Source: Myxococcales bacterium
GTDB lineage: Bacteria; Myxococcota_A; UBA9042
Direction of reading: 5' to 3'
Assembly: GCA_037441385.1 (NCBI GenBank)
Contig: JBBISH010000012.1
Coordinates: 1-64,000, forward strand
DNA: 64,000 nucleotides
Part shown: in pieces, positions 1 through 61,642 of the stretch
Layout: each line of letters begins with the position of its first letter
Position numbering within the stretch: the stretch's first letter is position 1
Program-made: the position numbers and the translations under genes
Notes under the pieces: generated by a model
Database searches by the model: none
What the model was told of the DNA's origin: nothing
The model's input: only the letters and a program-made list of their open reading frames with translations

Positions 1-659
1 GGTTGCGGGGCGTCCGGGGCCGGGGCGGTGGTTGGGGTGGGCTGGGCCGGCGCGACCACCTCCGGTTCCGGTCCTGCGCGGGACGGAACCGGCGGCGCGG
101 CGGGCGGTGGCCGTGCGCCAGCGGCCTGGGCGAGCTCGGCCTCTAGGCGTTCCAAGTGTTGACGCGCTCTAGGCAAAATTCGTTCGTCATGGCGACTGCG
201 GCGCACGACTTCGCGCAGATAGCGAACCGCCGCCTCTTTGTCCCCGCGCGCCATGGCGGCCAAGGCCGCCCCGTAGCCGTAGGCCATGGCCGCCGGGTCG
301 AGCTCCCACGCGCGCAGATAGGCCGCTTCGGCCTGGGCAAAACGCTTGGCTTGGTACTCGGCCAGTGCTTCGCGACCTACGGCAAGCGCCTGCCGATCCT
401 CGCGTTCTGCGGCAGCGACCACCGGGGCGGTCCCCACCAACGCGGCGGCGAGAACCGTGGCCAAGCAGGCAGAGATCCAGGACTGATGAGGAATACGGAA
501 ACCGTCTAATGCGGCTCGAAAACTCCGGCAATTCTTCGGGCCCGAACCGGGTTCCCCGCCTGATTCTCGCCGGTTGCAGACCGGGTCAGAGAAGCCGTAC
601 AGGCGTGAATCAGAGGGGGTTCTTACAAGGCGGTCAAGGCCGCCGCGCTGGGCTCGCAT
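1..659 (-). CDS. Secreted TPR-like protein, runs off the left edge; carries an in-frame MITE-like insertion in its signal peptide
   Basis: Not in the ORF track (no stop in window). ATG at 659 lies 3 nt after the kinase stop. The frame reads MRAQRGGLDRL-[insert]-PHQSWISACLATVLAAALVGTAPVVAAA-EREDRQALAVGREALAEYQAKRFAQAEAAYLRAWELDP (signal peptide plus TPR-like helices), then Pro-rich. Confidence 0.75.
   Translation of the reverse strand, partial: MRAQRGGLDRLVRTPSDSRLYGFSDPVCNRRESGGEPGSGPKNCRSFRAALDGFRIPHQSWISACLATVLAAALVGTAPVVAAAEREDRQALAVGREALAEYQAKRFAQAEAAYLRAWELDPAAMAYGYGAALAAMARGDKEAAVRYLREVVRRSRHDERILPRARQHLERLEAELAQAAGARPPPAAPPVPSRAGPEPEVVAPAQPTPTTAPAPDAPQ
491..628 (+). mobile_element. 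Dispersed 138-bp palindromic MITE-like element, copy 1
   Basis: Colinear without indels with 4471-4608 (reverse) and 42983-43120; 17 mismatches in 138 vs copy 3 by manual count. Confidence 0.85.
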
Positions 660-662
660 CGG

Positions 663-2144
663 CTACTCCGGCGGCAACACAGAATAGGGGTCGCCTGCAG
701 GCGCGGGGCGCGGCCGGGCTCCGCGTGCCGGGCGGCGCGAGGGCACAGACGCGGCCCGGCTTCCGTTCGCAATGACGTGATGTTCTGGGCTTGCGGGCTC
801 GACCGGCCGAGCCGGTGCAGGTTCGGGCGGGGCCGCAACGGATGGCGGGGCCTGCGGGCGACCTGGCTCCGCAGGTGTGCTGGCCGGCGGCAATGGGTTG
901 GGCAGCGGCGGCGCCGTGACCGCTGGGTGGGCGGAAATAGCGGTGGCCGGGGCAATCGGCGGCTTCGTTTGGGCCGCCGGGCCGCGATCGTGGACCTGGA
1001 CCGCCGCCAACCCGGCCAACGCCGCCACGGCCGCTGCCGCCAGGACCCAACCGCGAAGACTGCTCCGTGGGGCGCGCCGGAGGGGCAACGCCGCGACCGG
1101 GACGGCGTCGTCGATCGTGGCCAAGTCCAGGTTGGGCAAGTGCTGCACCTGGGCGCACTGGCGCAGCGCTGCGGCCATCTGCTCGGCGCTGCGGAAGCGG
1201 CGCTCGGGCGAGCGGGCGATGGCCGTCATCACGATCGCCGCGAACGCCTCGCTGACTTTGACGCCAGCCACAGCCCGGATGTCGCGCGGAGACTCATAGA
1301 CGTGCGCAAACATCGCCCGCGCGCCGGGAAGTTCGCCCCACGGCAGCTGACCGGACAACGCACGGTAGAGCACCAACCCCAGCGCATACAGGTCGGTGCG
1401 GCCGTCCACGACCTCGGCCATGCACTGCTCGGGACTCATGTATGCGGGCGTGCCAACAACGTTTTCCGTCAGCATCGACGCGCTCTCGTGCCGGGCTAGC
1501 CCAAAGTCGATCAGCTTGTAGCGCGGCTGGCTGCCGGGCCGACCTACCATGATATTGCCGGGCTTGATATCGCGGTGGACGATCCCCAAGGCGTGCGCAG
1601 CAGCCAAGCCATCCAGAACACAAATGCCCAGTTCCGTGGCCGCCCCCTCGGTCAGCCGGTACGGAGCGGGCGGCGTTTCGGCAAGGTGGTGCTGCAGGGA
1701 CTCGCCTGGCACAAGGTCCATCGTCAGGTACTCGCACCCGTCGGCCGTGGTGCCCGTGCCCAAGATCCGCACCAGACTCGGGTGGCTCAGGCGCGTCAGC
1801 GCGGCGACCTCGCGGCGAAACCGGCGTACATGCCGCTGGTCGTCGTTGCGCTGAAGGAGCTTGACGGCCACCAAACGCTCGCCAGTGACATCCCACGCCT
1901 TGAACACGGCGCCGTGACCGCCGCGCCCCAGCATGCCTTGGAGTTGGTAGCGGTCATCGATGGTCATGCCTGGCCGCCACGGCAGCCCGGCCCAAGGCAC
2001 CGTGGGCGTCGGCCGGCCCAAGTCGTCCAGGTCGGCAGACGGCAAGTCCGCCGCCAGAAGGTCACCGGCCGCAGACCCGCCAGCGGCGGGCTCGACAGCC
2101 CGTCTGAGCGGTGCGCGTTCAACGATGGCGTTGCGAGATTCCAC
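663..2144 (-). CDS. Membrane-anchored Ser/Thr protein kinase (start uncertain)
   Basis: LGRGGHGAV, VAVK, HRDIKPGN, DFG, GTPAYMSPE motifs; TM helix and Pro-rich C-terminus. GTG 2144 chosen because a sigma70-like promoter lies at 2200-2228. Confidence 0.92.
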   Translation of the reverse strand: MESRNAIVERAPLRRAVEPAAGGSAAGDLLAADLPSADLDDLGRPTPTVPWAGLPWRPGMTIDDRYQLQGMLGRGGHGAVFKAWDVTGERLVAVKLLQRNDDQRHVRRFRREVAALTRLSHPSLVRILGTGTTADGCEYLTMDLVPGESLQHHLAETPPAPYRLTEGAATELGICVLDGLAAAHALGIVHRDIKPGNIMVGRPGSQPRYKLIDFGLARHESASMLTENVVGTPAYMSPEQCMAEVVDGRTDLYALGLVLYRALSGQLPWGELPGARAMFAHVYESPRDIRAVAGVKVSEAFAAIVMTAIARSPERRFRSAEQMAAALRQCAQVQHLPNLDLATIDDAVPVAALPLRRAPRSSLRGWVLAAAAVAALAGLAAVQVHDRGPAAQTKPPIAPATAISAHPAVTAPPLPNPLPPASTPAEPGRPQAPPSVAAPPEPAPARPVEPASPEHHVIANGSRAASVPSRRPARGARPRPAPAGDPYSVLPPE

Positions 2145-2199
2145 GGCGTGGTCGCTTGGCCTCCAGAAAGTTGCGGGGACCGCTGACTTGGATACCACG

Positions 2200-2228
2200 A
2201 TCCTACGGATAAAACTGACGCAAGTCAA
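2200..2228 (-). promoter_or_regulatory. Putative sigma70 promoter of the kinase
   Basis: TTGACT-N17-TAGGAT on the minus strand. Confidence 0.5.
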
Positions 2229-2481
2229 TGCTTTACACGGCCATGAGTTGGCCGGCGGCCGTCTCGGTCGCGCGGGGCCGCATCGCGACAAGCCAGGCCT
2301 GTCCGGCGCGTCGCGCTTTGGCGACAGGTTGTCGGGATTTTTGGACACCAATACAACTACGCAAAATGGATAGCTATTCTCCAGAGACATCCATGTCGGC
2401 ATTTGCCGACGCCGACGCGGCGCCGACAGTTCGCCGATCGCCCTTACCTACTACTGATTGAAATTACATAGATCTGTAAGT

Positions 2482-4470: not shown

Positions 4471-4608
4471 TTATACGCACCCCACCTGATTCGCGCCTGT
4501 ACGGCTTTTCTGACCCGTTCTGCAACTGGCGAGAATCAGGCGGGGACCCCGGTTCGGGCCCGGAGAATTGCCCGAGTTTTCGATCCGATTCGGACGGAAC
4601 TGGTATTA
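4471..4608 (-). mobile_element. Dispersed 138-bp MITE-like element, copy 2 (intergenic, inverted)
   Basis: Reverse complement aligns to 491-628; bounded by TTA...TTA on the plus strand. Confidence 0.85.
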
Positions 4609-5135
4609 GGTCCCCAGGGAACGCGGCGGGGTGGCACGCGGTTGCCGGACTGCCCGCACCGACGCCCGGTCTCTGGACCAGCGTGGGGCCCCGGAGTCCA
4701 CTGCAGGTTACCGGCGCCTCCCGGACTTGGGCTGCCCTGGTTTGGCCCGATCCGACCGCGGACTGGCGCAGTCGCGGCCTTGACGCGCCCGCCGGGGCGC
4801 GGCCACGCGGCAAGGATGCGAGCCCGCAGGGCGGCGGACCGGCACATCCCAAGTTTCCGTCCCAGGTCCCATCTCGCGCGTGCCGGGCCGCCGCAGCGGC
4901 GGCGTGATTTGGGTATGGGCGCCAGTTGCCCCGTCCGCCGCTGCCGCAGCCTGACGGCGCGCAGCGCCGGGCCGCCCATCTCCCAACCCAGCATGACCAA
5001 TCCGCGACCGACGCCACCCACAACCCGTTGACACCGCAGGCTCCGCGTCGCAACCTGCCGCCCGCGACCCGCGCACTTCCCGGGCCGCCGCACGACCGCA
5101 CCCGCGGCCCAAACCGCCACCCAGACGAGGTCCCC

Positions 5136-42982: not shown

Positions 42983-43120
42983 TGATACGGTTTCCGTCCA
43001 AATCGGCTCGAAAACTTCGGCAATTCTTCGGGCCCGAACCGGGGTCCCCGCCTGATTCTCGCCGGTTGCAGACCGGGTCAGAGGAACGGTACAGGCGTGA
43101 ATCAGACGGGGTTCATATGA
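42983..43120 (+). mobile_element. Dispersed 138-bp MITE-like element, copy 3 (intergenic, between convergent genes)
   Basis: Aligns to 491-628; bounded by TGA...TGA. Confidence 0.85.
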
Positions 43121-43210
43121 GGGGCCCGCTTGCGACCCACAGAGCATCAACGAGTTTTCGTCAGCGAGTCGTTACGTTGCTCTGAACATCGGAGATTTGT
43201 GATTGGTGTT

Positions 43211-44874: not shown

Positions 44875-45084
44875 GGCTTGGGCCTTGTCGCGCGAAGTGG
44901 TCGCGTGCGGCTGCGTCCGATGTCTGGCACGCAGCGGGCCTAGCTTAGCGCGCCTGGGCCGCGGCGAGCAATTGCCGCACGGCGGCCGCCACTGTCGCGG
45001 TTTTGCGCGGGCCTGCTACAGTTGCACGTGAAGACCTTGTTGGGGTTTGCTTTGCCGCTCGCCGTCCGCCACTGGAAGCCGCAC

Positions 45085-47199
45085 ATGCGCATCGGCGCGT
45101 CGCTGGTCCTGCTCCGGCAGATCGGCGAGGGCGGCATGGGCCAAGTATGGCTGGCCCAAGACGAATTGCTGGATCGACAAGTGGCGGTCAAGTGGCTGCG
45201 GGCGGACTCGGACCTGGAGGCGCTGGCGCTGCGGACCTTGCTGGAAGCGCGGGCGGCTGCGCGCGTCGTGCACCCCCACGTGGTGGCCGTTCACGCCATC
45301 GGCGACGATCAAGGCCTGCCGTACATCGAGATGGAGTGGGTGGATGGGCCGTCGCTGCGGCGCGTGCTGGCCAATGGGGCGGTCCCCCGGCCGCAGGCGG
45401 CGCTTTGGCTCGTGCAGATCGCGGCGGCTCTAGACGCTGCCCATCGGCTTGGGGTCATCCACTGCGACATCAAGCCAGAAAACGTGCTGTTGCGCACCCT
45501 GAGCGACGGCCCGACCATCGCCAAGTTGGCCGATTTTGGGCTCGCACGCAGCCGGCAAGACGGCCGGGCCGATGCGCCGCTCAGCCACGGCACCGCGGCC
45601 TACCTGGCGCCCGAGCTAGAGACTAGCGCCCCGCGAGCGACCTCGGACCTGTTCGCGTTGGCCGTGATGGCGGTGGAGTTGCTGACCGGCGACCTGCCGG
45701 AGCGGCCCGACTGGCGCACCCAACCGCAGATTATCGCCGACCAATTGCCACCCGCGGCCCGCGACGTGCTGCGGCGCGCGACGGACGCCAACCCGCAGCG
45801 GCGGCCTACTTCGGCCGGGGCCTTTGCCGACGAGCTGTTGCGGGCCCTGGGTCTCGCCAGCTTGCGATCGGGCCTGCCATCCGCGGATTTCAATGCCACC
45901 AGCGCCGAGATTGCCTTGCCCGTGCTGGGGGGCCAGGTGCCGCTTGAGGTGGCGATTCCGCTGCTGCTGAGCGTGTTGCCGCCGCAGACTGGGCTGCTGG
46001 ACCTGGCGCTGGGGTCTCGGCCGCCCGCGGACCTGTTGGCCCAACTGCGCCACGACGGCACGCTGATCGGGACCAACGCCGCCCCCGAGCTAGCGCCGGA
46101 GATGGATCGGCACAACCTGACCCAGTCGCTGCCGCCGCGGGCCCTGCGCGTGGTGCTAGCGCGCGCGGCGTCGGCAATCGAGGCGGGCTGCGCACAAAGC
46201 GAGTCCAGTCGGGAAGATGCGACCCGCTTGTACTTGGCCGCCCGCCGGTTGGGCGATGCCGCCCGTTTGGCGCGCGAAAGTGCTGCGGCTACGGCGAACG
46301 CGCGGGCGCGCCGGCAGCACTTGTCCCGGGTGGTGGCGCTATCGGCCTCTGCGACCCAGGCCGGGCCGTGGCTCGCGGCCCTGCTCGACGGCATCGAGTG
46401 GGATCTGCGCTGCGGCTGGCTGGAGGCGGTGCGAGCGCCGCTGGCCGAAGCCCAAGGCCTGGCCGCGGATTTGGCGCTGGCCCCCGGAGATCCCCTGCGA
46501 CTCCGGGCTGATCTGGCCGATGCGGCGCTGCGCCTGGGGCACGGTCATCCTCGCAAGGCGCTGGAACGCTTGGACCGGGTCGCTGCGGCGATGCCCGCCG
46601 AGGCGGCGGAACACCCTTTGGGGCCCGAGGTTTGGGCGCTGCGCGTAGCCGCACTGGCAGAGGGAGAGCGGCCGGAGTTGGCGCTGGCCCAGGCCCGAGC
46701 GGGCAGCGGCGGTCAGGCCATCGAGCCAGCCGTGCAAGCGTCGCTGGCGGCCGCTTGGGCGGCGATGCGCTTGAACGATTGGAACAGTGCCGAACGCTTT
46801 GCGCTGCAAGCCACGGCCGGTGCTGCCGAATTGGGCGACGCCCTTTTGGCGGCCGAAGCGGCCCTGCGCCGCGGTGAGTGTGAGCTGGGTCGCGGCCGGC
46901 CCACGCGTGCCAGGAAACTCGCCGACGACGCCTTGGCCCTGCTGGAGTCGCTGGGTACCGTGGCGACGACTGCCAAGGCGCTGTGGTTGGCCGGCCGCTG
47001 TTGCGAGCCGTTGCGGCAACCGCTGGCGGCCGCGCGCGCCTACGGTCAGGCCGAAGTGCTGGCCGGCGAAATGGGCTTGCCGCGGCTGCGGTTAGATGCA
47101 CTGCTTGCGCTGGCCGAGCTCGCGCAGACCGCCGGCCAAGGCGACGTGGCCGAGGCTTGGCGGCAAGAGGCAGCGCGGCTCCGGCGGCGGATGGTCTAG
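45085..47199 (+). CDS. Ser/Thr protein kinase with Ala/Leu-rich TPR-like C-terminus (start uncertain)
   Basis: IGEGGMGQV, VAVK, HCDIKPEN, DFG, GTAAYLAPE. Confidence 0.88.
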   Translation: MRIGASLVLLRQIGEGGMGQVWLAQDELLDRQVAVKWLRADSDLEALALRTLLEARAAARVVHPHVVAVHAIGDDQGLPYIEMEWVDGPSLRRVLANGAVPRPQAALWLVQIAAALDAAHRLGVIHCDIKPENVLLRTLSDGPTIAKLADFGLARSRQDGRADAPLSHGTAAYLAPELETSAPRATSDLFALAVMAVELLTGDLPERPDWRTQPQIIADQLPPAARDVLRRATDANPQRRPTSAGAFADELLRALGLASLRSGLPSADFNATSAEIALPVLGGQVPLEVAIPLLLSVLPPQTGLLDLALGSRPPADLLAQLRHDGTLIGTNAAPELAPEMDRHNLTQSLPPRALRVVLARAASAIEAGCAQSESSREDATRLYLAARRLGDAARLARESAAATANARARRQHLSRVVALSASATQAGPWLAALLDGIEWDLRCGWLEAVRAPLAEAQGLAADLALAPGDPLRLRADLADAALRLGHGHPRKALERLDRVAAAMPAEAAEHPLGPEVWALRVAALAEGERPELALAQARAGSGGQAIEPAVQASLAAAWAAMRLNDWNSAERFALQATAGAAELGDALLAAEAALRRGECELGRGRPTRARKLADDALALLESLGTVATTAKALWLAGRCCEPLRQPLAAARAYGQAEVLAGEMGLPRLRLDALLALAELAQTAGQGDVAEAWRQEAARLRRRMV

Positions 47200-47255: not shown

Positions 47256-47630
47256 GCAAAAGCACGAAAGGCCCGGGAATTGCTTCCTTGGGCCTTTCTT
47301 GGTCGCTGGGGCAGGATTGCACGCCTGGGCCGGTTTGCTCAAATCCCGCCTCGCGGATGGCAAAAGCACGAAAGGCCCAGGAATTGCTTCCTTGGGCCTT
47401 TCTTGGTCGCGGGGGCAGGATTGCACCCCTGGGCCGGCTTGCTCAAATCCCGCCCCGCGGATGGCAAAAGCACGAAAGGCCCAGGAATTGCTTCCTTGGG
47501 CCTTTCTTGGTCGCGGGGGCAGGATTGCGCCCCTGGGCCGGCTTGTTCAAATCCCGCCCAGCGGACGGCAAAAGCACGAAAGGCCCAGGAATTGCTTCCT
47601 TGGGCCTTTCTTGGTCGCGGGGGCAGGATT
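47256..47630 (-). repeat. tRNA-linked tandem array, 104-bp period (3 full units plus partial)
   Basis: Units start at 47256, 47360, 47464, 47568; each has a terminator hairpin plus a copy of the tRNA 3' end. Confidence 0.95.
47578..47610 (-). terminator. Intrinsic terminator originally following the tRNA (repeated in each array unit)
   Basis: GAAAGGCCCA...TGGGCCTTTC stem followed by GTGCTTTT on the minus strand. Confidence 0.75.
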
Positions 47631-47678
47631 TGAACCTGCGACCTTCGGGTTATGAGTGGCGGACGCTGACCTTGGTGG
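47614..47678 (-). repeat. att site: 65-bp direct repeat containing displaced 3' part of tRNA-Met
   Basis: Identical to 61642-61706; adjoining host sequence ends ACCA, but there is no 5' acceptor strand. Confidence 0.92.
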
Positions 47679-47762
47679 ACGCGCGGGGCCTTGGATTTTG
47701 CCCTGTTGTGAGTCATCGCCGCCTTGAGTACCTTGTCGAACTTGCCCGGCAAGGATAGCCGT

Positions 47763-47784
47763 TGGTCACAAAATGGGAACAGAC
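47763..47784. promoter_or_regulatory. Putative integrase arm-type sites (left end)
   Basis: TGGTCACAAAA-TGGGAACAGAC, 11-bp period, matches the pair at 61570-61591. Confidence 0.6.
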
Positions 47785-49104
47785 GAGCCGAAGAAAGACA
47801 CCAAGAGGCCGCGACGGACGAGCGAAGAGGTAGCAAGAGCGAAGAAGGCGAGAGAGAAGGCGAAGAAGGTGAAGGCGGCGAGGAAGGTCGCGAAGGAGAA
47901 TGCTAAGAAGGCGATCGCTGACAAGAAAAGGGCGGTGCGGGCCGCCGGGGGCACCTGGCCGAAGGTGACCAAGGCGCAGAATGCGGCGGCTTTGAGCGAT
48001 CCCGCGCGGCGACCCAGCCTGGGAGACCTGCACGCAGCGATCAGGACGTTGTCGGTGATGGTCGACTGCTACGAACGGCAAGAACCCATGCTCGACCCGA
48101 AGAATGGCGCCGTCGATCGCGAAAACGACACTGTGCTGCTAGAGGTGATCGAAATCCTACGCAATGCCGCAGCACGACAGAGTTACACCGGTGCAATCCG
48201 GTCCGCCGCTGCCCAGTTGAGCCAGTCGGTTGCACAGGCGGTCGCCACGGCTATCGGCAAGCGGCACAGGGGGCGCGGCGCCCCAGTCACGCGGTCCGGA
48301 ATCGTGCCTCCGGGTTGGCCGGAGTCCTCAGATCGCTTCGTCACAGAATTCGGCATGGCCATTTGGGAATTTCAGCGCGCTACGGGTCAAAGCGTTGACG
48401 CGAAGTTGGCGGCAGAGGCCCTACACACCGCACAGGAAGGCGTCCACAATGCCCGAGCCGCTCACACCGATGTCGGCCCAGCAGACGTTGGGCTACAGGC
48501 TGCAGCTGACATAGCCGGGGTGTCGATTTCGACGATCAAGAAGTGGGCTGCGGCCCAGCGCACAACCGGCAGCAAGAACGCGGAGCCGGAACATGGCCGG
48601 GCAACGACCTTCTACGGTGCACGGTTCGACAACAGCGACCTCGACCAATTCGCACGCCGCTTGTGTAGGCCGTTTGGCGGTGACGCATTCATTCGAGCAG
48701 CTGCGGCCGAAATCGGCGTCGACGACGTGTTGCGGCTGGCTACCCGAATCTTCGACGGAGCCGCCTGGAGCTTGCCGGCATCGCCGGAGTTCTACGCGAA
48801 GCGCGATGCGTTGAAGGCCCTGGTGGCAGCACTCGGGGGCAATCCGGCGCTCTACGGGGCACGAGCTGATGAGCTACCTGCAATCTCGCCACGGACAGGC
48901 GCCGCGCCCGGGTCAATGGAAATTCGAGGGCGGGACGCGCAGGGGGACGGATTGTGGCTGTTTGAGGAAATAGACAAAGGTGCGCGTCTTGTCGACGTTG
49001 CACGCGGGGCTTGGTCCACCGAACCCCTGGCGATTGAGGAGCGCTATCGGAAAATGGTGAAGGAGTTCCTGAGCCAAATGGCACGTGAACTGGCAGGCAA
49101 GTAG
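47773..49104 (+). CDS. Hypothetical protein, Lys-rich N-terminus, possible internal HTH
   Basis: 443-aa ORF; LQAAADIAGVSISTIKKW resembles an HTH; start uncertain. Confidence 0.6.
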   Translation: MGTDEPKKDTKRPRRTSEEVARAKKAREKAKKVKAARKVAKENAKKAIADKKRAVRAAGGTWPKVTKAQNAAALSDPARRPSLGDLHAAIRTLSVMVDCYERQEPMLDPKNGAVDRENDTVLLEVIEILRNAAARQSYTGAIRSAAAQLSQSVAQAVATAIGKRHRGRGAPVTRSGIVPPGWPESSDRFVTEFGMAIWEFQRATGQSVDAKLAAEALHTAQEGVHNARAAHTDVGPADVGLQAAADIAGVSISTIKKWAAAQRTTGSKNAEPEHGRATTFYGARFDNSDLDQFARRLCRPFGGDAFIRAAAAEIGVDDVLRLATRIFDGAAWSLPASPEFYAKRDALKALVAALGGNPALYGARADELPAISPRTGAAPGSMEIRGRDAQGDGLWLFEEIDKGARLVDVARGAWSTEPLAIEERYRKMVKEFLSQMARELAGK

Positions 49105-49245
49105 GTAACGCCTGGCCGCGCCTGGTGGCGGGACGGTGGGCGGATTGGTGCCGAGGCATCCCTAACTTGAGCTTGCTGCCCACTTGATAGCCAAACCGCG
49201 CAGATCGCAACACTGCAGCCAAGCCCAACCCGCGTTTGCTCTGCC

Positions 49246-49644
49246 CTACCCCACCCGCCGCCGGTCCCACAACTGCGCCTCGATCAGCTCCATCGTCGCC
49301 GGATCCGCCGGCCCGCCGAGCGCCTGCCATTCGTCGCGGCAGGCGTTCTCGAACTCCCACACAGCCAGGTTGGCGACCACCAGCGCGTCGACCTTGCACC
49401 CCAGCGCACGGGCCGCGCGGGCGACAACTCCAAGGTTTAGGGCATAGGCCCCGGTCTCGTAGCGGCACAGGGTTACCGGGGCGACCGGCGGCGCCATGCG
49501 GGCTGCTAGGTCCTGCTGCCGATACCCGCGCCGGATCCGCTCTTTGGTCAGGCGCCAGCGGCTGGGGATCAGGCCAAGGCGCGCGAACCGCCGGTGCATG
49601 CGCTTTAGATCGGGCAGTTGGCCCGCAGGCTGGATCGGGTTCAT
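49246..49644 (-). CDS. XRE-family HTH regulator
   Basis: ERIRRGYRQQDLAARM...TLCRYETG...ARALGC; GGAGG RBS. Confidence 0.75.
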   Translation of the reverse strand: MNPIQPAGQLPDLKRMHRRFARLGLIPSRWRLTKERIRRGYRQQDLAARMAPPVAPVTLCRYETGAYALNLGVVARAARALGCKVDALVVANLAVWEFENACRDEWQALGGPADPATMELIEAQLWDRRRVG

Positions 49645-49647
49645 GGG

Positions 49648-51126
49648 TTACCTCCCTCGCAGGGCGCGATCGCGGGTCGCCTCGGCACGGGCAGGCGGTG
49701 GGCCCGACACAGGCATTGGCACTTCCTCGACAGCGCGGCCGGCTGTTGCAGCGTTCCGCAGGGGGCGCAGGCGCACATTTCGCGACGTAGCGCGGGGTTG
49801 CGGCTTCAAGTAGCTCGCCGTGCGAGCGGCGGCCTCCTGCCTGGAGTGTTCGGCCAGCGTCTGCAGCAGCCTCGGCCGCTCTGGGGGCATGTTGGCGGGC
49901 CATGTGCGCCACTTTCCCCCGCAGCGGCTGCAGGATTGCAGTTGCCGGGTAGCAACTCGGCCGCAACCGGTGCACGTCCAGAACTGACGAACCTGGGTGT
50001 CGGCGGGCTGGGCGGCCAAGGTCCACTCGCGATCACCGTGCGCCAAGCCCAGGCGGCGCCAGTTGTCGCCAAAGTCGACCACGAGCAGCGCGTCTTTGCG
50101 GTGCGCCGGCAGCCGACCGATGGCGAGCTCTTGCAGCCAGCGCGAGCGCGACAGTGTCGAGTGGGCGACGAAGATGGCGTCGACGGCGGGCGCTTGCACT
50201 CCTTCGGTAAATAGATCGACCACGCACAGGGCCCCGACCTTGCGCGAGGCGAGTTGCTCGAAGGCCGCGGCGCGTTCGACGTCGGGTGTGCGGTCGTCGA
50301 TGCACGCCGCGCGGATCCGGGCCTCGGCCAGCGCGGTTGCCAGTTCCTTTGCGTGGCGCAGGCTCGCCGCGAAGATCAGCAGGCGCTGGCGGCTGGCAAG
50401 GCTGGTTGCCGCCTCGACGACGGCGCCGATCAACCGCGCGCTGCAGAACGCCTCTTCTTGGTCGCGGGCGTCGAATTCGTTGTCGTAGCGACGGAATAGC
50501 GACACGTCGGGGCATTCGCTGGTGTGCAAGTGGCTCGGCACCAGGTGGCCGGCGCGGACCATGTCGGCGTCGGTCACTGCGACAACGGCCGTGCGGTACA
50601 GGCGCAACAGGGCGTCGTCGGCGACTCGCTCGGGGGTGGCGGACAGGCCGACTAGCGCGGCACCGGGGAAGGCGTCGGCCAGCGCGCGGGCTTGCTCTGG
50701 GTCGACGTGGGCCTCGTCGATGATGATCAGGTCGGGCGCGGCGTCTTGGGGCCAGCGGCGGGCGCGGCGGCACATGGTCTGGGCCATTCCGAGCGTGAGG
50801 TGCGGCGCAGGGCTGGGGGGCTTGGCGGTTGGCGAGCCGAGGGCGGCGACGTCGGCGGTCCAGCGGTGGATCTCGGCGAGGGTCGGGGCGAAGAGTTCAA
50901 GCCGGGGCACGACGTACAGGGTCTTGTTGCTTTGCTCGGCGACGCGGCGGGCCAGCTCGACGGCGATCGCGGTCTTGCCGGCGCCCCTGGGCGCGCAAAG
51001 CATGACGCGGGCCGGTTGGCGTGCGGCGAGCTGGGCACGCAGGGTCGCGAGGAGGCGATCGACGGCGGCGGCTTGGTAGGGGCGGAGAGCGGGCCGTGGT
51101 GTATGCGGGGTTTGGGGGGTGGCCAT
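49648..51126 (-). CDS. SF2 (DEAH, ResIII/YejH-like) helicase with C-terminal Zn ribbon; motif VI degenerate
   Basis: LRPYQ, APRGAGKT, IIIDEAH, GLSATP, FTEGV, CTGC..CSRC. Confidence 0.85.
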   Translation of the reverse strand: MATPQTPHTPRPALRPYQAAAVDRLLATLRAQLAARQPARVMLCAPRGAGKTAIAVELARRVAEQSNKTLYVVPRLELFAPTLAEIHRWTADVAALGSPTAKPPSPAPHLTLGMAQTMCRRARRWPQDAAPDLIIIDEAHVDPEQARALADAFPGAALVGLSATPERVADDALLRLYRTAVVAVTDADMVRAGHLVPSHLHTSECPDVSLFRRYDNEFDARDQEEAFCSARLIGAVVEAATSLASRQRLLIFAASLRHAKELATALAEARIRAACIDDRTPDVERAAAFEQLASRKVGALCVVDLFTEGVQAPAVDAIFVAHSTLSRSRWLQELAIGRLPAHRKDALLVVDFGDNWRRLGLAHGDREWTLAAQPADTQVRQFWTCTGCGRVATRQLQSCSRCGGKWRTWPANMPPERPRLLQTLAEHSRQEAAARTASYLKPQPRATSRNVRLRPLRNAATAGRAVEEVPMPVSGPPPARAEATRDRALRGR

Positions 51127-51353
51127 ATGGCAACTGCGCGCCGCGAATTGGCGGAATTGCCAATCAGTATAGCGATTTCCATGACCTCAGCCAAGGCCGA
51201 CGTGCAAAGTACCGGTTTCGTGCTGCCGGGGCGGCCGCGACATGTAGCGCGCGGCCGTGCCAGGTATCGCCGGAAACTGCACACAAACCGACGGACATGA
51301 AGGTTGTCATCCGCCAGTTGATAGCAACCCGCAGAGTATTGTTTGAATGTCAA

Positions 51354-52100
51354 CTACTTGACACAATCCCCATCGCGGGCAGTGCACTTCTTGAGGACCT
51401 GGCAGTTCAGCGACTGCCGGCAGCTTGCATTATTGGCCGCAACACACTTAGTGCCGTCTGTGCTGCACCGCCCGAACTTCTGACACTGTTCGGAATCAAA
51501 GCAGTCCTCGTCCGATAGGTGAGCGCTCTTTGCTGGAGCGACGGGTGGTGCGGTATCTGCCGCCTTGGCTGGCTTTGTTGTTCCCTGAGGCGCCTTCTTG
51601 GCCCCGGTGCTCTTGGCGCTTGCCGCTGTGCCTTCGTCGGTGGGCGTTTCTTCGACGGGTTCAACTGGGGCAGCGGCCTTCTTGGGCGCTGCTGTTCGCT
51701 TGGGCGGCGGCGTGTAGATGCCAGCACCAGAGTCGACACGGCACGCATACTCAACCGTCCGCGTGGCCAAGATCGTCGATGCCGATGAGCCGAGCGAAGC
51801 CATCGACGTGATACAGCCGGTGTCTCCTTGATTGCAACTGCGCGACAGGGCGTAGCCGGTTGCGGCGGCAAGCCCGAAGGAGATCAACAGGTCGCTGAAG
51901 TCTTGCTTACTCTCAGACCACGCCACGCCGGCCGCTCCGCATTCCCGGGCCGCGTCCGCGGAAATTCGCGTAGCCCCCCAGAAGAGGAACCACTGCTTTT
52001 CCGATTGCGCCGGGCCTGCGGGCGCACTGGTCATTAGGGAGGTCGTAAAGCAGCCGGGGAGGCTCAGGGCGATCGCAATGACGCATAGGATCTTGCGCAT
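51354..52100 (-). CDS. Bor/Iss-like lipoprotein with Cys-rich C-terminal repeat
   Basis: Lipobox LPGC; QWFLFWG...DAARECG...SESKQDF...VEYAC resembles the lambda Bor pattern; C..SEQC...GRC repeats. Confidence 0.6.
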   Translation of the reverse strand: MRKILCVIAIALSLPGCFTTSLMTSAPAGPAQSEKQWFLFWGATRISADAARECGAAGVAWSESKQDFSDLLISFGLAAATGYALSRSCNQGDTGCITSMASLGSSASTILATRTVEYACRVDSGAGIYTPPPKRTAAPKKAAAPVEPVEETPTDEGTAASAKSTGAKKAPQGTTKPAKAADTAPPVAPAKSAHLSDEDCFDSEQCQKFGRCSTDGTKCVAANNASCRQSLNCQVLKKCTARDGDCVK

Positions 52101-52344
52101 GGGAATTCCTGGATGTCACGGATCGCGACAGGGGGCCGCCGGGACACGTACTGCACGGTGCCGGCGTTGGCCGCGCTGGGTTTGGCAAATCGCGACAGAC
52201 AAACCCGACGAGGTGAATGTGCTGACGCCGAAGTGGATCATGCTGCTTTCATTCATGGAGTTTGCGCCGATGAGCACATGCAAGCCAGCGTCACGATCGG
52301 TTCACGGTCAGCAGCAGACTTGATCGTCCAGTTGACTACTTCGG

Positions 52345-53619
52345 TCAGAACGTCGGCGCGATCGTGAACTCGACCTCGACCACGTCGTTGAAGAGAAATC
52401 CCGACTTTGCCCCGGCCTTGATCAGGCCGAGCAGTCCTGTCGTGGACCAAGCGCTACCGTCCGCAAGATCGTCCGAGAACACGTCTTCATCGTACGCCCA
52501 CACGTCAAGCTCTGAGCTTTGGAACAACTTGACGGAAAACGACTCGGAAAACGTGGCCTGAAATACGTCCTGGGCCGCCTTGGTACAGAAAAGGCTCTTG
52601 CCGTCCACCCCAACACACAACTTGGGATCGGGCGCGCCACCCCCGGAGTCCCAGGCAGACTTGGATTTTGGGTCGAGCACCGGGAATTTCGCCGACTTCA
52701 GTGACACGAGGTAAGTCATGCCGTCATACGGCTGGCATTTGCCGCCTGCGCACACGTCGGTGGGGCCGCATTGGCCAGACGACGAGCAAGCCGTGCAACC
52801 TGAACCTCCGTAAACGCAAACCTTGCCACCAGTGCACGCCGCGGCAGCTAGCTTCTTCTTGCACCCGTCGGTGCCATTGATGCACTGCTCAACCTTGCCC
52901 GCACTGGTGCACTTGTCGCCCGAACACTCGTCAGCGCACGGTACCTTGCACGTTCCCGAGTTGCAGACCGCACCGCCCGTGCATCCACAAGTTGCGCCGC
53001 AGCCGTCGTCCTGCCCGCACGACACGCTGTTACAGGCGGGCACGCACGTCGGCTTGGCTAAGCACGCGCCGCCCTGACAGACCTGGTCGAGGCTGCATTC
53101 GGAACTCTTCTTGCAGGGCCGACACTCCGAGTCTCCGGTTGGGCAGACCTGACCATTGCCGCACGATGACGGCGAGTTGGTGACGGGGCACCCGTCGGCG
53201 CCGGTTCCGCAGGTCTGAATTTCGTTTCCGCCTAGGCACAGTTGGACACACGTTGCGGTGCAGGTCACGCCGTTTGGTTGCCCTTCGCAAACGCCACCCT
53301 TGCAGACCCGCGAAGAGCCGTCGAAGCGACACTCAAAGTCGCCCGCGCATGCCCTACATTTGGCCTCGCCGGGGACGCACACGGCACCGCCCGGGCAGAT
53401 CATCGTCTGCGACGGGACAGAGCAGCCGCCGTTGTCGGTTCTGCAGGTCACCAGCCTTCCCTTTGTGTCGCACGCTTGGGAGCAGGCAATCCCACAGGTC
53501 GATCCCGGCGACACGTCAGCGCCCACGCCAGACCCGCCGGTTCCACCACCGGATTGACAACTGGCGGCCGTCGCTATGAGGCAAGCGGCGCAAAAAGATA
53601 GAACCAAGTTGCCGCGCAT
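52345..53619 (-). CDS. Cys-rich lipoprotein with C-terminal C2-like domain
   Basis: Lipobox AASC; dozens of Cys; C-terminal WD..GGAPDP...T....D...F.ESF...VWAYDEDVFSDD pattern. Confidence 0.75.
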   Translation of the reverse strand: MRGNLVLSFCAACLIATAASCQSGGGTGGSGVGADVSPGSTCGIACSQACDTKGRLVTCRTDNGGCSVPSQTMICPGGAVCVPGEAKCRACAGDFECRFDGSSRVCKGGVCEGQPNGVTCTATCVQLCLGGNEIQTCGTGADGCPVTNSPSSCGNGQVCPTGDSECRPCKKSSECSLDQVCQGGACLAKPTCVPACNSVSCGQDDGCGATCGCTGGAVCNSGTCKVPCADECSGDKCTSAGKVEQCINGTDGCKKKLAAAACTGGKVCVYGGSGCTACSSSGQCGPTDVCAGGKCQPYDGMTYLVSLKSAKFPVLDPKSKSAWDSGGGAPDPKLCVGVDGKSLFCTKAAQDVFQATFSESFSVKLFQSSELDVWAYDEDVFSDDLADGSAWSTTGLLGLIKAGAKSGFLFNDVVEVEFTIAPTF

Positions 53620-53732
53620 TCGATCACCGTTACGATGTTGCACGCCGTATAACATGACGTTCAACATCGGTCAAGTTGCAGCGCGTTCCGACGCAAACTC
53701 CCCTGTCGCCCACGCGGCAAGGGCCTGCGCAA

Positions 53733-54173
53733 ATGGCACAGCGGTCGACGAACAATCCTGAATGCCGAGCGCTCGCCGCCGTAATAGCTAGGAATTTGCG
53801 CAAGCGACGACTCGCCCACGGGCTCTCTCAGGCGGAAGTGGCGGAGGTGCTTGGCGTAAGCGTTGAATCCTTTTCGCGAATCGAGCGCGGCTTGTCCCTG
53901 CCCAGTTTCCCGACACTGCTGCGGATGGCGACAATGTTCGGAGCGCAAGCGGGTGACCTATTGAAATCGGAGGGCGAGCCTGAGATGGCTCGACGGCAGC
54001 CGCGTGTAACTGCAGATTACTTGGAGACCGCACCCACTCCGACCGCCATCGCCCCACAGCACGACGCGCAGCAGGCCGCGGTGCTATTTCTGCGAATCGT
54101 TGACGCGAGCCGCACACTTGATGCCGCTCGTCTGGAGAAGTTGGCGGTCGCCGCAGAGGAACTGGCAAAATGA
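53733..54173 (+). CDS. XRE-family HTH repressor
   Basis: NLRKRRLAHGLSQAEVAEVLGVSVESFSRIERGLSLPSFPTL. Confidence 0.88.
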   Translation: MAQRSTNNPECRALAAVIARNLRKRRLAHGLSQAEVAEVLGVSVESFSRIERGLSLPSFPTLLRMATMFGAQAGDLLKSEGEPEMARRQPRVTADYLETAPTPTAIAPQHDAQQAAVLFLRIVDASRTLDAARLEKLAVAAEELAK

Positions 54174-54870
54174 TCCGCGGTTCGCGGCCGGACAGGTGGC
54201 GCCGCCCCGGTGCGCCTGCAATCCGATGCGGGGAGCGCTGCTCCGGCCTCGCTGCTTCCGGTCGTCCTTCCCTTAGCTTATCCAGGCCGCGCCAGCGGCG
54301 CCACCCAAAGTCGCCTGCACTTCGCCCTGCACCGGCGTAGCACCACCGGAAACCGGTTGAGCGAGTTCAGACTCTTGGGGGCAAGTCTCGGCGGCGTCAC
54401 CCGTGATCCCAGCTGCGCCGGCGTTACCCGCGCGTTGCTGCTTGTCGTTGCCCGACCACGGCCGGATAGCTTGGCGACGGACTGCGACGCCTGCCGCGGG
54501 CTGGATGCGGCCGCGCCATGCGATGCCACGGATGATCGCCGGGCGCCAGCCCGTGCACCGTCCCGCACCGGTGCGCAGCAGCGAGAAACCACGGCGCAGC
54601 TCTGGCGCGGTGGGGCCGCCACCGCACCGCAATAGCGCGCGACGCCCTGGAGCACACCCGCGGCGGTAGCGGCGCGCGAAAAGCCCAGGTGCCGGCCCAC
54701 ACCGTCTGCAGGCGAGGCACGTGAACCCGCGACGCGGCGCAGTAACCCGATTGCGGGGCAGTTCCATACGATGCGGTTGTTGTCGCCATTAGTGCAGGCA
54801 TGGATGGCAGGCATTAGACAGCATAAACGAAGGTAACAACCTGGCGCTGAGGTTACAGCAACGCCGCGGG

Positions 54871-54900
54871 GGTCAACCGGCACCAGGTCAACCGGCACCA
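54871..54900. repeat. 15-bp tandem direct repeat
   Basis: GGTCAACCGGCACCA twice; core CAACCGGCAC recurs at 54989. Confidence 0.8.
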
Positions 54901-55199
54901 GGGCCCAACGGAGTCGGTTAGCCAACAGCGTGGGGCCGATCCGCGTGCCCTGGCTTTTCGGCGCAATGGCCGGCAGCCGGAAGGCGCACAACCGGCACAG
55001 GGAACCGTTGCTGGGCTGCGGTTCTTGCCCTCGGAGCCGGCGGCTTTGGGGGCATCTTTGGCCGCTATGTCATGCGGGCGGGCCGGGGCCCGTGCCGCAG
55101 GCGTAAGGGCCAGCGGTCCCGCCCTACTTACACTCCGTTCCGTTCCGTGTACGGTTATTGCACACAACGGCCTAAAATTATTGGACGCGGCATGAGATA

Positions 55200-55281
55200 G
55201 AGTGTGAAGCGTTGCCGGTTGGAGTGTGAAGTGTTGCCGGTTAGGCTGTGAAGCGTTGCGCGCAGAGTGTGAAGCGTTGCT
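55200..55281. repeat. Iteron array, putative replication origin
   Basis: TGTGAAG(C/T)GTTGC at 55203, 55225, 55247, 55268 (22/22/21-bp spacing); AT-rich CCTAAAATTATT nearby; directly after the putative rep stop. Confidence 0.8.
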
Positions 55282-55285
55282 GAAT

Positions 55286-56770
55286 CTACATCAACGACCT
55301 GTGTTTACGTCTGTTTCCTTTGCGGCCGTTTGCGCGGCCTTCGATTCGGAGTCTGCCGCTAGCGGCGATAAAGTCGCGCTCCAGGCCGTGCGGGTCCGCC
55401 AGCGTGAATTGGCCGGGTTCGGGCTCCAGCAACAACGCAGGCGCCTCTTCGCTCTCGCCTTCCCGCCACAGCTCCAGCAACTTCGGCAGCGCCGCCACTG
55501 GCAGGCCCGCCGAGCGAGCGAGCTCGCGCAGTCGGTCCTCGCTGATGCAAACAGAGCCAAATCGGAACAGCTCTTCGGCTCGGTCCACCAGTTCGACCAA
55601 GAGAAGTCGGTGCAGCATCCAGGCCTTGCCCCAGTCGTTGGACCGTAGGGCCGAGACTGGCGGCTCGAACCGCAGTTCGGGCACCAGACGCCGAGCCATC
55701 CGGTCTGCATGGGTGCCGCCTGCCAGATTTGCCATCTGCGCCGCCATCCCCGGCAACAGCGCTTCGCCCAGCGTAATGCGCACGACGCTCACTTGCCCGG
55801 GCGCTGGTTTGGTGACGCGCAGCCATGTCCACAGGCCTCCGATCTTGAGTGTGGGCTGCATCCACGTGATGTGCTGGCCGGCAGTGAGCATGGCTTCAAG
55901 GGCGCCAAAGTCGCGACTGGTATGGCGCACTGCCAGGGCCAGCGCCGACAGACCGCCAAGAAACTCGACAACGCGAAAATCGACACCGGGCTCACCGGCC
56001 GCGTGCCGCTCCCGTTGGCTGTGCCCGGTACTTACAAGCAGTCGCAGCAAGCGATGCCACGCCACCGTGCCGAACTGCGCAAGACCTCCGTGCACCGCTG
56101 TCAGGATCGCGGGGTCAAGGGTAGCGACCGTGCCGAGGATATTGGGACCATCACCGCGGACAGCGCCATCGGTCGGGGAAATCGTCAGTCGACCGCTGCC
56201 AGCTGGGACCAGCACGTCGTAGGCCACCACTCGGGGCAGCCCAGCTGGTGCAACTGCGTGCCGGTGTAGCCACTGAGCCTCGACATGGGCCTCCCAGAGA
56301 GTGCGCGCCACGGCAGCGAGTGCCGGGTGCGCGCAATCGCCCCATAATTTGTAGAGGTCGCTGTCGGTGCCGTCGCCGCCGCGGTAGGCCTGCAGCCGCT
56401 GGGCCGAAAGTGTACGCAGGTTGGTCGCGCGGCCGGATTCGATGGCGTCCATCCAATCGGCCAAAGCGGCGTCCAAGGCCAACATGTCGTCGCGAATCGT
56501 CGGGCCTTGCCCGCCGGCCGCGTGGTCCCCCTGCGCCGGAAGAACGAATGTCGCCGCCAAGCGCCTCGTTGCGTCAAGAAGGGCAGTGGCTAGCATCGCC
56601 TGCGCAACGCGGTCAACCCTGGCCGATTCGCGCGACAGCGTAGTGGTCACGGCGGCGGAGCGCGCATTGGCCCCTGCCGATTCGGGCCATAGCCTAACAG
56701 CCGACAGCGCCTCCGCTTCGTATGCGGCAGGGCATTGGCCGACGGCAGCTGGCAGCGAATCAGAGGTCAT
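55286..56770 (-). CDS. Hypothetical protein, putative replication initiator
   Basis: ATG 56770 overlaps the helicase end; gene ends just before the iterons; function inferred from position only. Confidence 0.55.
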   Translation of the reverse strand: MTSDSLPAAVGQCPAAYEAEALSAVRLWPESAGANARSAAVTTTLSRESARVDRVAQAMLATALLDATRRLAATFVLPAQGDHAAGGQGPTIRDDMLALDAALADWMDAIESGRATNLRTLSAQRLQAYRGGDGTDSDLYKLWGDCAHPALAAVARTLWEAHVEAQWLHRHAVAPAGLPRVVAYDVLVPAGSGRLTISPTDGAVRGDGPNILGTVATLDPAILTAVHGGLAQFGTVAWHRLLRLLVSTGHSQRERHAAGEPGVDFRVVEFLGGLSALALAVRHTSRDFGALEAMLTAGQHITWMQPTLKIGGLWTWLRVTKPAPGQVSVVRITLGEALLPGMAAQMANLAGGTHADRMARRLVPELRFEPPVSALRSNDWGKAWMLHRLLLVELVDRAEELFRFGSVCISEDRLRELARSAGLPVAALPKLLELWREGESEEAPALLLEPEPGQFTLADPHGLERDFIAASGRLRIEGRANGRKGNRRKHRSLM

Positions 56771-59626: not shown

Positions 59627-59949
59627 GGCGCCACATCGGTTGCCAGTTCTTCGGTCCTGGGCGGCTGCGGTGAAGGTGAGTCGGCCAGCGAAGGGCTGGG
59701 CAACTCCGGGGCGGGCTCGGTCAGCCGCAGCAGGAACTCGATCGCTTGCCGCGCCTGTTCGCGATCCAGCTTGTTGGCCAGCCCGAAAAGGTACAGCTGC
59801 TGACCGCGGCTCATGGCCTTCGGCGGGCCCATCAACCAGGCGATGAGAAACCCGGCTTCGGGCTTGCTCAGCGCCTTCAAGCGGTCCGGGGCGGTCAAGC
59901 CATCGAGGTAGCGAAGTTGACCGTCGCTGGCGGTGACATGCGTGCTCAT
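59623..59949 (-). CDS. Hypothetical protein with two short Q..YL..L repeats
   Basis: ATGA-coupled on both sides; ASDGQLRYL / MSRGQQLYL. Confidence 0.7.
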   Translation of the reverse strand: MSTHVTASDGQLRYLDGLTAPDRLKALSKPEAGFLIAWLMGPPKAMSRGQQLYLFGLANKLDREQARQAIEFLLRLTEPAPELPSPSLADSPSPQPPRTEELATDVAP

Positions 59950-60170
59950 TTCTGCACCGCCGCGGGTACCCGGTGCGACTTCAAGAACGCCTCCAAGGCG
60001 TGTTGCTCAAACAGGACCGTGCGGGCCCCGAGCCGGACGTGGTCGATCCGTTTGTGGTGGACGAGGGAGTAGAGCGAACCAACTGGAATTCCAAGGAACT
60101 TCGCAGCCGACTCGTAGCGGTGAATGATGGTGCTGGTGGGCTTGTCCGTGGCTTCAGGGCTTGTCGCCAT
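59946..60170 (-). CDS. Excisionase / HTH_17 (AlpA-like) DNA-binding protein
   Basis: SAAKFLGIPVGSLYSLVHHKRIDHVRLGARTVLF; AAGGAG RBS. Confidence 0.85.
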   Translation of the reverse strand: MATSPEATDKPTSTIIHRYESAAKFLGIPVGSLYSLVHHKRIDHVRLGARTVLFEQHALEAFLKSHRVPAAVQK

Positions 60171-60308
60171 CTTGGCTCCTTCGTACGGCGGCTGATTCCG
60201 TCGTACACGAGCCAAATTGCGCTGAGCTTGAGGGGCGCGGAAGACGCCGGATCCGTGCGAATCCTGGTTCTTCCCGGCAACATGCCATTCTACATGGCAT
60301 TTTTCGTG

Positions 60309-61591: not shown

Positions 61592-61595
61592 CGCC

Positions 61596-61636: not shown

Positions 61637-61642
61637 TTGGAG

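What the first reader, a model, noticed from the sequence alone, without database searches (positions are those of the whole stretch)
491..628. Repeat element inserted in frame into a signal peptide (Rickettsia-palindromic-element-like behaviour)
Seen: on the minus strand the element is stop-free and in frame between ATG 659 and the hydrophobic signal of the TPR gene, adding 45 codons (VRTPSDSRLYGFSDPVCNRRESGGEPGSGPKNCRSFRAALDGFRI). Removing 135 bp (element plus one 3-bp end repeat) gives MRAQRGGLDRLPHQSWISACLATVLAAALVGTAPVVAAA, an ordinary-looking signal peptide. The same frame is open in copy 2. Known: Rickettsia palindromic elements insert in frame into CDSs. Inference: a similar peptide-donating repeat family may exist in this lineage.
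Basis: partly seen in the sequence, partly recalled or inferred. Interest (0 to 1): 0.75.

Follow-up and report, generated by a model that had tools for sequence, protein, structure and literature searches.

The report
Mobile repeat inserted in a signal peptide
A 132-base mobile repeat, which together with its 3-base duplication adds exactly 45 codons, sits in frame inside the export signal of a TPR gene; a related gene shows the same event, but most copies lie between genes.

Summary
Window 494-625 is a 132-nt dispersed repeat flanked by 3-nt duplications (491-493, 626-628). It has 3 copies in the window, and 11 of 23 loci from one genome scan hold it, all from one "Deltaproteobacteria bacterium" MAG. 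Element plus duplication is 135 bp, or 45 codons. It reads stop-free from ATG 659 into the hydrophobic leader of a TPR gene.

The element looks like a MITE: short, dispersed, with target-site duplications (5 of 14 identical, consensus T-N-A), no RNA covariation and no Rfam match.

Thirteen of 14 DNA copies are intergenic, often on a stop codon or just upstream of a start. Stop-free frames follow from base composition, and 1-nt indels break the peptide frame in 3 copies. So this is not a Rickettsia-like peptide-donating family.

In-frame insertion into a signal peptide is nevertheless real for this family. Protein P0076 (604 aa) carries the 45 residues between MKTARL and its lipoprotein leader. 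Its 87%-identical orthologue P0077 (559 aa), and all 35 other homologues, lack them.

For the window gene no close orthologue exists, so the empty allele is inferred and the translation start is untested.

The parts
494..625 (+). Copy 1 of the 132-nt MITE-like element. Its 3' half holds an imperfect internal palindrome.
   Evidence: Boundaries come from the 14-copy alignment. nhmmer gives E=1.9e-37.
491..493 (+). Left 3-nt flank GAA, a degenerate target-site duplication.
   Evidence: It matches the right flank CAA at 2 of 3 positions.
626..628 (+). Right 3-nt flank CAA, a degenerate target-site duplication.
492..626 (-). The 45 in-frame codons (VRTPSD...DGFRI) contributed by the element plus one flank.
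   Evidence: No in-frame ATG, GTG or TTG lies inside.
629..659 (-). ATG 659 and codons 1-11 (MRAQRGGLDRL; the last codon ends inside the right flank). Inferred ancestral start and positively charged n-region.
666..669 (-). GGAG, 6 nt upstream of ATG 659: a Shine-Dalgarno-like motif inside the end of the kinase gene.
   Evidence: Read from the sequence.
663..2402 (-). Upstream Ser/Thr protein kinase gene. Its TAG stop (665-663) is 3 nt before ATG 659.
   Evidence: Pkinase, E=9.4e-42; ORF.
3..491 (-). Remainder of the TPR gene (it runs off the window): hydrophobic leader WISACLATVLAAALVGTAPVVAAA, then TPR repeats. The alternative start TTG is at 464-462.
   Evidence: Weak TPR matches. 73 homologues; the best small full-length-type hit is P0002, E=2.9e-13.
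42983..43120 (+). Copy 2 (element 42986-43117) with a perfect TGA/TGA duplication. It lies between the convergent PilZ and alpha/beta-hydrolase genes.
4471..4608 (-). Copy 3 (element 4474-4605) with a perfect TAA/TAA duplication. It lies in the divergent spacer between a PAP2 gene and the formate-tetrahydrofolate ligase gene.

Best explanation
The repeat is a small non-autonomous mobile element of MITE type. It is 132 nt long, duplicates 3 nt of target (consensus T-N-A) and so always adds 135 bp, or 45 codons.

Inferred steps:
- One copy landed after codon 11 of a TPR gene, between the charged n-region (MRAQRGGLDRL) and the hydrophobic core of its signal peptide.
- The length is a multiple of three and this orientation and frame has no stop, so the reading frame from the old start ATG 659 survived.
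- The gene now encodes a pre-protein whose leader is 45 residues longer. The element-encoded ...FRI end still places an arginine next to the hydrophobic core.
- The leader is cut off after export, so such an insertion costs the mature protein nothing. This would explain why rare intragenic copies of a mostly intergenic element are seen in signal peptides.

Shown: repeat family, boundaries, duplications, in-frame ORF, absence of the segment in homologues, and an empty allele for a sister copy.

Not shown: that ATG 659 was and still is the start, that export still works, and the survivorship argument.
For: Family and mobility:
- 3 copies in the window and 11 in one MAG.
- Flanking 3-mers are identical in 5 of 14 copies and match at 30 of 42 positions. 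Permutation gives P=0.006 and 0.00035.
- Both orientations occur relative to neighbouring genes.

Ancestral start at 659:
- The ATG is in frame, 3 nt after the kinase stop, with GGAG 6 nt upstream.
- With residues 12-56 removed, the N-terminus maps to query position 46. The N-termini of the 13 fetched homologues (of 73 hits) map to positions 27-63, median 44. This is my arithmetic on the table and sequences.
- Every one of those 13 has K or R before its hydrophobic core. A start at TTG 464 would give MATVLAAALVG with none, and would map to position 66, beyond all 13.
- No homologue covers residues 12-56 (0 of 73).

Sister case:
- P0076 reads MKTARL + 45 aa + TLLFHFLCAVLLASSGGC. P0077 reads MKNARHPLSSLLAAAALLVGSAGC.
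- Without the element, both have 24 residues up to the lipobox Cys.
- Residues 68-604 align gap-free to 23-559 at 87% identity.
- 36 of 36 homologues lack the peptide.
Against: - Thirteen of 14 DNA copies are intergenic, several within 0-51 nt of a start codon. An intergenic landing just upstream of a start at TTG 464 would therefore fit the family habit.
- L004 shows how an upstream ATG can read through the element into a gene that has its own complete signal peptide 6 codons later. An open frame alone proves nothing.
- Copy 1's flanks (GAA/CAA) are imperfect and are not T-N-A.
- No orthologue closer than 41-44% identity was found, so there is no empty allele for this gene.
- Codon-position GC does not discriminate here: 0.78/0.56/0.77.
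- There are no expression data.
Confidence: 0.5

Rival explanations
1. The element landed in the spacer between the kinase stop and a TPR gene that started, and still starts, at TTG 464. The ATG 659 frame is then a chance open frame that a gene caller would over-extend.
For: - 13 of 14 copies are intergenic and many sit just upstream of starts: 18 nt in L004, 51 nt in L021, abutting the SD in L016.
- L004 shows exactly such a spurious read-through.
- Stop-free frames are common: 4 of 6 in the consensus.
Against: - TTG 464 yields a leader with no charged n-region, unlike all 13 homologues inspected.
- No purine-rich motif lies upstream of it.
- The hydrophobic run WISAC continues upstream of that TTG.
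- ATG 659 has GGAG at the right spacing.
- My rough estimate of the chance of an in-frame ATG plus an open element frame is about 0.03.
Confidence: 0.2
2. The element did land inside the ancestral signal-peptide coding sequence, but it damaged the gene. The long leader is not functional. The protein is now made from TTG 464 or later, poorly exported or not exported, or the gene is decaying.
For: - A 61-residue n-region is far outside the homologue range.
- The copies are 85-90% identical to each other, so the insertion need not be old enough for purging.
- The open frame shows no sign of selection.
Against: - The ORF is intact for all 219 codons seen.
- A second gene (P0076) keeps the same arrangement with a full 604-aa ORF.
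- Element-encoded arginines sit next to the hydrophobic core.
Confidence: 0.2
3. This is an RPE-like family that is adapted to live inside genes and donates a conserved peptide.
For: - 132+3 = 135 bp keeps the frame in every insertion.
- Four predicted proteins carry the peptide: the window ORF plus P0074, P0075 and P0076. Three of them carry it at residues 7-61, ahead of a hydrophobic stretch.
Against: - Only 1 of 14 DNA copies is possibly intragenic.
- Only 3 library proteins carry the peptide.
- 1-nt deletions occur in L008, L014 and L001.
- The number of open frames is not above shuffles (P=0.16).
- In P0075 the peptide lies in a tail beyond a MYXO-CTERM-like end.
- The search covered this one frame only, so the shared frame is by design.
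Confidence: 0.07
4. The repeat is a structured small RNA or a cis-regulatory RNA, or else an ancestral protein segment.
For: - It has a conserved internal 17-bp imperfect stem.
- It often lies near gene starts.
Against: - Covariation is absent: 2 of 27 pairs compensatory, covariation term +0.73.
- The folding z-score is 0.05 on one strand and -0.29 on the other.
- Rfam gives no match (at gathering threshold; at E<=1 on L004 and L021).
- Both orientations occur relative to genes.
- Target duplications are present.
- Homologues lack the segment.
Confidence: 0.03

Closest known systems
Bacterial MITEs found inside genes as in-frame fusions (intragenic ERIC, BOX, QMITE1 of Coxiella, Anabaena MITEb/MITEe). 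Source: review PMC10969869, passages read.
   Same: A short, non-autonomous, dispersed repeat with target duplications that occasionally sits in frame in a host ORF. The review calls such fusions 'not unusual'.
   Different: This is a different sequence family in a different lineage (source names: Deltaproteobacteria and Myxococcales MAGs). Here the two best cases are at the n/h boundary of signal peptides. My two literature searches did not show that site described, nor a MITE described in Myxococcota; I saw listings only, apart from the review.
Rickettsia palindromic elements (RPE; Ogata et al. 2000, as summarised in PMC10969869).
   Same: About 100-150 bp, partly palindromic, and able to add a peptide in frame without breaking the host ORF.
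   Different: The review says nearly half of the RPEs from three of ten families are inserted in ORFs, each encoding a conserved peptide. Here only 1 of 14 DNA copies is possibly intragenic, the frame is not conserved, and the open frames are compositional. There is no sequence relation to test against; no RPE sequence was on hand.
IS5-family / PIF-Harbinger-type elements that duplicate a T-N-A trinucleotide (recalled, not from any call).
   Same: A 3-nt duplication with consensus T-N-A: TGA, TAA and TCA in the 5 perfect cases.
   Different: No parent transposase was found: the 14 ORFs scanned in the window include none. Terminal inverted repeats are weak, 11 of 20. This is a lead only.
Extended signal peptides with long N-terminal regions, for example the ESPR of autotransporters (recalled).
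   Same: A long charged segment ahead of an ordinary hydrophobic core and cleavage site.
   Different: Those extensions are conserved, family-specific sequences. Here the extension is a recent mobile-element insertion with no sign of selection.

Membership tests
MITE | Small size with no room for a transposase | tested here: met
   The element is 132 nt (131 in 3 copies).
MITE | Multiple dispersed copies | tested here: met
   There are 3 copies in 64 kb.
MITE | Target-site duplication | tested here: met
   Flanks are identical in 5 of 14 copies, match 2 of 3 in 6 of 14, and match at 30 of 42 positions. Permutation gives P=0.006 and 0.00035.
MITE | Terminal inverted repeats | tested here: inconclusive
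   The consensus ends match at 11 of 20 positions (shuffle P about 0.009). Only the TA...TA termini are clear.
MITE | A related autonomous IS with the same ends | not tested
   No transposase was found among the 14 window ORFs scanned.
Rickettsia palindromic elements | Sequence membership in an RPE family, in the genus Rickettsia | not testable with these tools
   No RPE sequences were on hand. Source names of related proteins are Deltaproteobacteria and Myxococcales MAGs.
Rickettsia palindromic elements | A large share of copies inserted in frame in ORFs | tested here: not met
   One of 14 DNA copies is possibly intragenic. Only 3 proteins carry the peptide in the library search.
Rickettsia palindromic elements | A conserved element-encoded peptide frame | tested here: not met
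   The peptide frame is open in 12 of 14 copies, but another frame is open in 14 of 14. Three copies have 1-nt deletions. Shuffles reach at least 4 open frames in 15.6% of cases.
REP/BIME | A 20-40 nt palindromic unit with no target duplication (recalled definition) | tested here: not met
   The unit is 132 nt and has duplications.
Structured RNA family (Rfam) | A match to a curated model, or covariation | tested here: not met
   Rfam gives no match. Two of 27 pairs are compensatory.
Sec-type signal peptide (host gene, element removed) | Charged n-region, hydrophobic core, small residues at -3 and -1 | tested here: inconclusive
   By eye on the translation: MRAQRGGLDRL.. / WISACLATVLAAALVGTAPVV / AAA-E. 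No signal-peptide predictor was available. The homologues have comparable leaders.

The most novel reading that the evidence does not exclude
Signal peptides are a safe harbour for this frame-preserving (135-bp), stop-poor mobile element. Insertions at the n/h boundary, in at least two or three unrelated exported proteins, are translated from the old start, still exported and then cleaved away. On this reading, a mostly intergenic MITE family repeatedly makes functional extended leaders that could tune export.
Probability: 0.25. Interest if true: 0.55.

Novelty: new member of a known kind. Interest (0 to 1): 0.4.

Why it matters
- It adds a documented natural case, with an empty allele in an 87%-identical orthologue, of a mobile repeat adding 45 residues inside a signal peptide. 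This is a natural test of how much length the n-region tolerates.
- It warns annotators. In high-GC genomes such repeats next to starts produce both true and false N-terminal extensions; compare P0076 with L004.
- It describes a repeat family in uncultivated Deltaproteobacteria/Myxococcales-type genomes for which my searches found no description.
- It is not a new kind of biology. In-frame intragenic MITEs are already known.

Tried and rejected
- Structured RNA. Single-sequence folds are no better than shuffles, there is no covariation and no Rfam match. Rejected.
- Promoter or terminator carried by copy 1. The scan of 300-900 found 0 promoter-like and 0 terminator-like sites.
- Selection for open frames. 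Not above shuffles.
- Split or in-frame intragenic copies in the MAG. L016 and L006 have the same coding phase on both flanks. In each, however, an upstream ORF ends with its own stop before or at the element. Rejected.
- Orthologue of the window TPR gene with an empty site. The word-index search returned only P0074, which matches the element peptide alone. The exhaustive representative search gave nothing closer than 41-44% identity. The test could not be done for this gene.
- Parent transposase in the window. None among the 14 ORFs scanned.
- Further degenerate copies. nhmmer found only the 14 copies plus one weak second copy in L019.
- The listing of cluster members on P0074, P0075, P0076 and P0002 did not complete because the database was switched off. 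Accessions and source organisms of P0074-P0076 therefore stay unknown.
- A Pfam call with a wrong frame failed and was repeated with corrected coordinates.
- Ascertainment caveat. The 11 MAG copies were found through an exact 19-mer, so the conservation of that stretch is not evidence of anything.

Full report
**What is there**

The minus-strand ORF 3..659 starts at ATG 659. It reads MRAQRGGLDRL, then the 45 residues VRTPSDSRLYGFSDPVCNRRESGGEPGSGPKNCRSFRAALDGFRI, then PHQSWISACLATVLAAALVGTAPVVAAAERED... and continues into weak TPR matches.

The ATG lies 3 nt after the TAG stop of a Ser/Thr kinase gene (Pkinase, 9.4e-42). A GGAG motif sits 6 nt upstream of it.

The 45 codons coincide with a repeat. 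Copies lie at 493-630, at 42985-43122 (89%) and, inverted, at 4471-4614 (85-87%). A 71-nt piece has no match in 100 shuffles.

**The family**

- Eleven loci, all from one MAG titled "Deltaproteobacteria bacterium", hold the whole element at 77-82% identity.
- The other 12 share only 19-34 nt and are chance matches.
- The 19-mer's conservation in these copies is by ascertainment.

The alignment of the 14 copies gives sharp ends: 132 nt (131 in three copies), beginning TAC.. and ending ..ATA.

The 3-mers on either side are identical in 5 of 14 copies (TGA, TAA, TGA, TCA, TCA) and match at 2 of 3 positions in 6 more. In total 30 of 42 positions match. Re-pairing the flanks among copies reaches these values with P=0.006 and 0.00035.

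Copy 1 has GAA (491-493) and CAA (626-628). Element plus one duplication is 135 bp, so every insertion adds exactly 45 codons.

Other features:
- Terminal inverted repeats are weak, 11 of 20.
- There is no support for a structured RNA. Fold z-scores are 0.05 and -0.29. Two of 27 consensus pairs are compensatory and the covariation term is +0.73. Rfam gives no match.
- No promoter-like or terminator-like site lies in 300-900.
- I found no transposase in the window among the 14 ORFs scanned.

The best description is a MITE-like element. Its 3-nt T-N-A duplication recalls IS5/Harbinger-type transposition; that link is recalled, not tested.

**Where copies sit**

In the window:
- Copy 2 lies between the convergent PilZ and hydrolase genes.
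- Copy 3 lies in the divergent spacer between a PAP2 gene and the formate-tetrahydrofolate ligase gene.

In the MAG:
- L006, L018 and L001: the duplication is the TGA stop codon of the upstream ORF.
- L004: the element ends 18 nt before the ATG of a GH31 lipoprotein (MNTRLALPILAALAGLTWGC).
- L021: it ends 51 nt before an ATG.
- L013: it ends 2 codons before an ATG.
- L016: it fills the spacer between a TAG stop and a GGAGGA motif.
- L001: it abuts an ATG that opens a signal-peptide-like ORF.
- L019 and L010: the flanks have no coding periodicity.
- L008 and L014: the flanks are coding-like but in different phases.

So 13 of 14 DNA copies are not in-frame intragenic insertions. Only copy 1 may be. 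Both orientations occur next to genes.

**Is the open frame special?**

No.
- Of the element's six frames, one is stop-free in 14 of 14 copies.
- The peptide frame and one other are each stop-free in 12 of 14 copies.
- A further frame is stop-free in 9 of 14 copies.
- The consensus has 4 of 6 frames open, and 15.6% of 2000 dinucleotide shuffles do as well.
- Three copies carry 1-nt deletions that switch frame.

**Was the insertion inside the gene?**

No close orthologue exists in the libraries. The exhaustive representative search found 73 hits. The best small, full-length-type one, P0002, is 41-44% identical, and none covers residues 12-56. The 45 residues are therefore not ancestral, but an empty allele of this gene could not be shown.

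Indirect evidence favours an ancestral start at 659:
- The ATG is in frame and has a GGAG motif.
- With the element removed, the N-terminus maps to query position 46. The 13 homologues I fetched (of the 73 hits) map to 27-63, median 44. This is my arithmetic.
- All 13 have K or R ahead of the hydrophobic core.
- TTG 464 is the only other in-frame start before the core. It gives an uncharged MATVLAAALVG, maps to position 66 (beyond all 13), and lacks a purine-rich motif upstream.
- The hydrophobic run (WISAC) continues upstream of that TTG.

Evidence against:
- The family habit is to land just upstream of starts.
- L004 is a cautionary case. There an upstream ATG reads through the element into a gene that has its own complete leader.

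**A sister case with an empty allele**

A profile of the element peptide (11 translations) was searched against proteins of 80-2000 aa. It found only three:
- P0074 (295 aa) has the peptide at 12-55. It lies ahead of a hydrophobic stretch; this case is ambiguous.
- P0075 (840 aa, DUF2330) has the peptide at 751-795. This is in a tail beyond a sub-threshold MYXO-CTERM match at 660-688, so it is probably a 3' read-through.
- P0076 (604 aa) has the peptide at 7-51.

P0076 reads MKTARL + 45 aa + TLLFHFLCAVLLASSGGC. A homologue search returned 36 relatives.
- The closest, P0077, is 559 aa, which is 604-45.
- It begins MKNARHPLSSLLAAAALLVGSAGC.
- It aligns gap-free, 68-604 to 23-559, at 87% identity.
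- Without the element, both have 24 residues up to the lipobox cysteine.
- None of the 36 carries the peptide (hmmsearch), and those I aligned (9 of the 36) have ordinary lipoprotein leaders.

This shows that the family does insert in frame between the n-region and the hydrophobic core of a signal peptide while retaining the old start.

**Verdict**

- The element and the in-frame arrangement are real.
- The insertion-into-signal-peptide reading is likely for the window gene. I put insertion into the ancestral coding sequence at about 0.7, and continued use of ATG 659 with export at about 0.5.
- The same reading is demonstrated for a sister gene.
- The Rickettsia-like claim of a peptide-donating family is not supported. 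This is a mainly intergenic MITE, and its rare intragenic survivors sit where 45 extra residues are cheap.

A review states that in-frame MITE fusions are 'not unusual' in bacteria (PMC10969869, passages read). My searches for MITE plus signal peptide and MITE plus Myxococc* gave nothing relevant in the listings, and a search on T-N-A duplications returned no paper.

**Unchecked**

- The other frames' peptides.
- The metagenome and viral collections (closed).
- Accessions of P0074-P0076 (one search did not complete).
- The full copy number (the scan was truncated).

Noticed in passing
window 47614-61716: A 65-nt exact direct repeat (47614-47678 and 61642-61706). The second copy overlaps a borderline Rfam tRNA hit (61643-61716, minus strand, 29.1 bits), which ARAGORN does not call. 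Between the repeats lie a tyrosine integrase (60309-61418, PF00589 1.4e-36), a DnaB_C helicase ORF and a ResIII/DEAD helicase ORF, and GC dips to 0.60-0.64. It looks like a roughly 14-kb integrative element at a tRNA gene.
   Followed up: partly
window 47256-47630: A tandem array of period 104 nt, 3.6 copies, 96% matches. It abuts the left 65-nt repeat, and each unit contains the first ~17 nt of that repeat. Its origin is unexplained.
   Followed up: partly
L006 1753-1755; L018 1427-1429; L001 2383-2385: In three MAG copies the element's 3-nt duplication is the TGA stop codon of the upstream ORF. The T-N-A target seems to steer insertions onto stop codons, and the duplication regenerates the stop.
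   Followed up: partly
L004 2429-2581 (minus strand): An ATG-ATG at the element boundary opens a frame through the element into a GH31 lipoprotein gene. That gene has its own start and a complete leader 6 codons after the element, so this is a ready-made gene-caller over-extension.
   Followed up: yes
protein P0075, residues 660-840: The ORF runs about 150 residues beyond a MYXO-CTERM-like end (16.7 bits, below the cut-off of 20). The tail is arginine-rich and includes the element peptide at 751-795. It is probably a lost stop or a read-through annotation.
   Followed up: partly
L019 836-981: A second, weak copy of the element (nhmmer E=5.7e-10) in opposite orientation overlaps or abuts the main copy at 909-1038. 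It may be a nested or tandem inverted insertion.
   Followed up: no
window 666-2402 and 44944-47196: Two Ser/Thr protein kinase genes lie in one 64-kb window, the first directly followed by the TPR gene with only 3 nt between stop and ATG. This suggests translational coupling.
   Followed up: no
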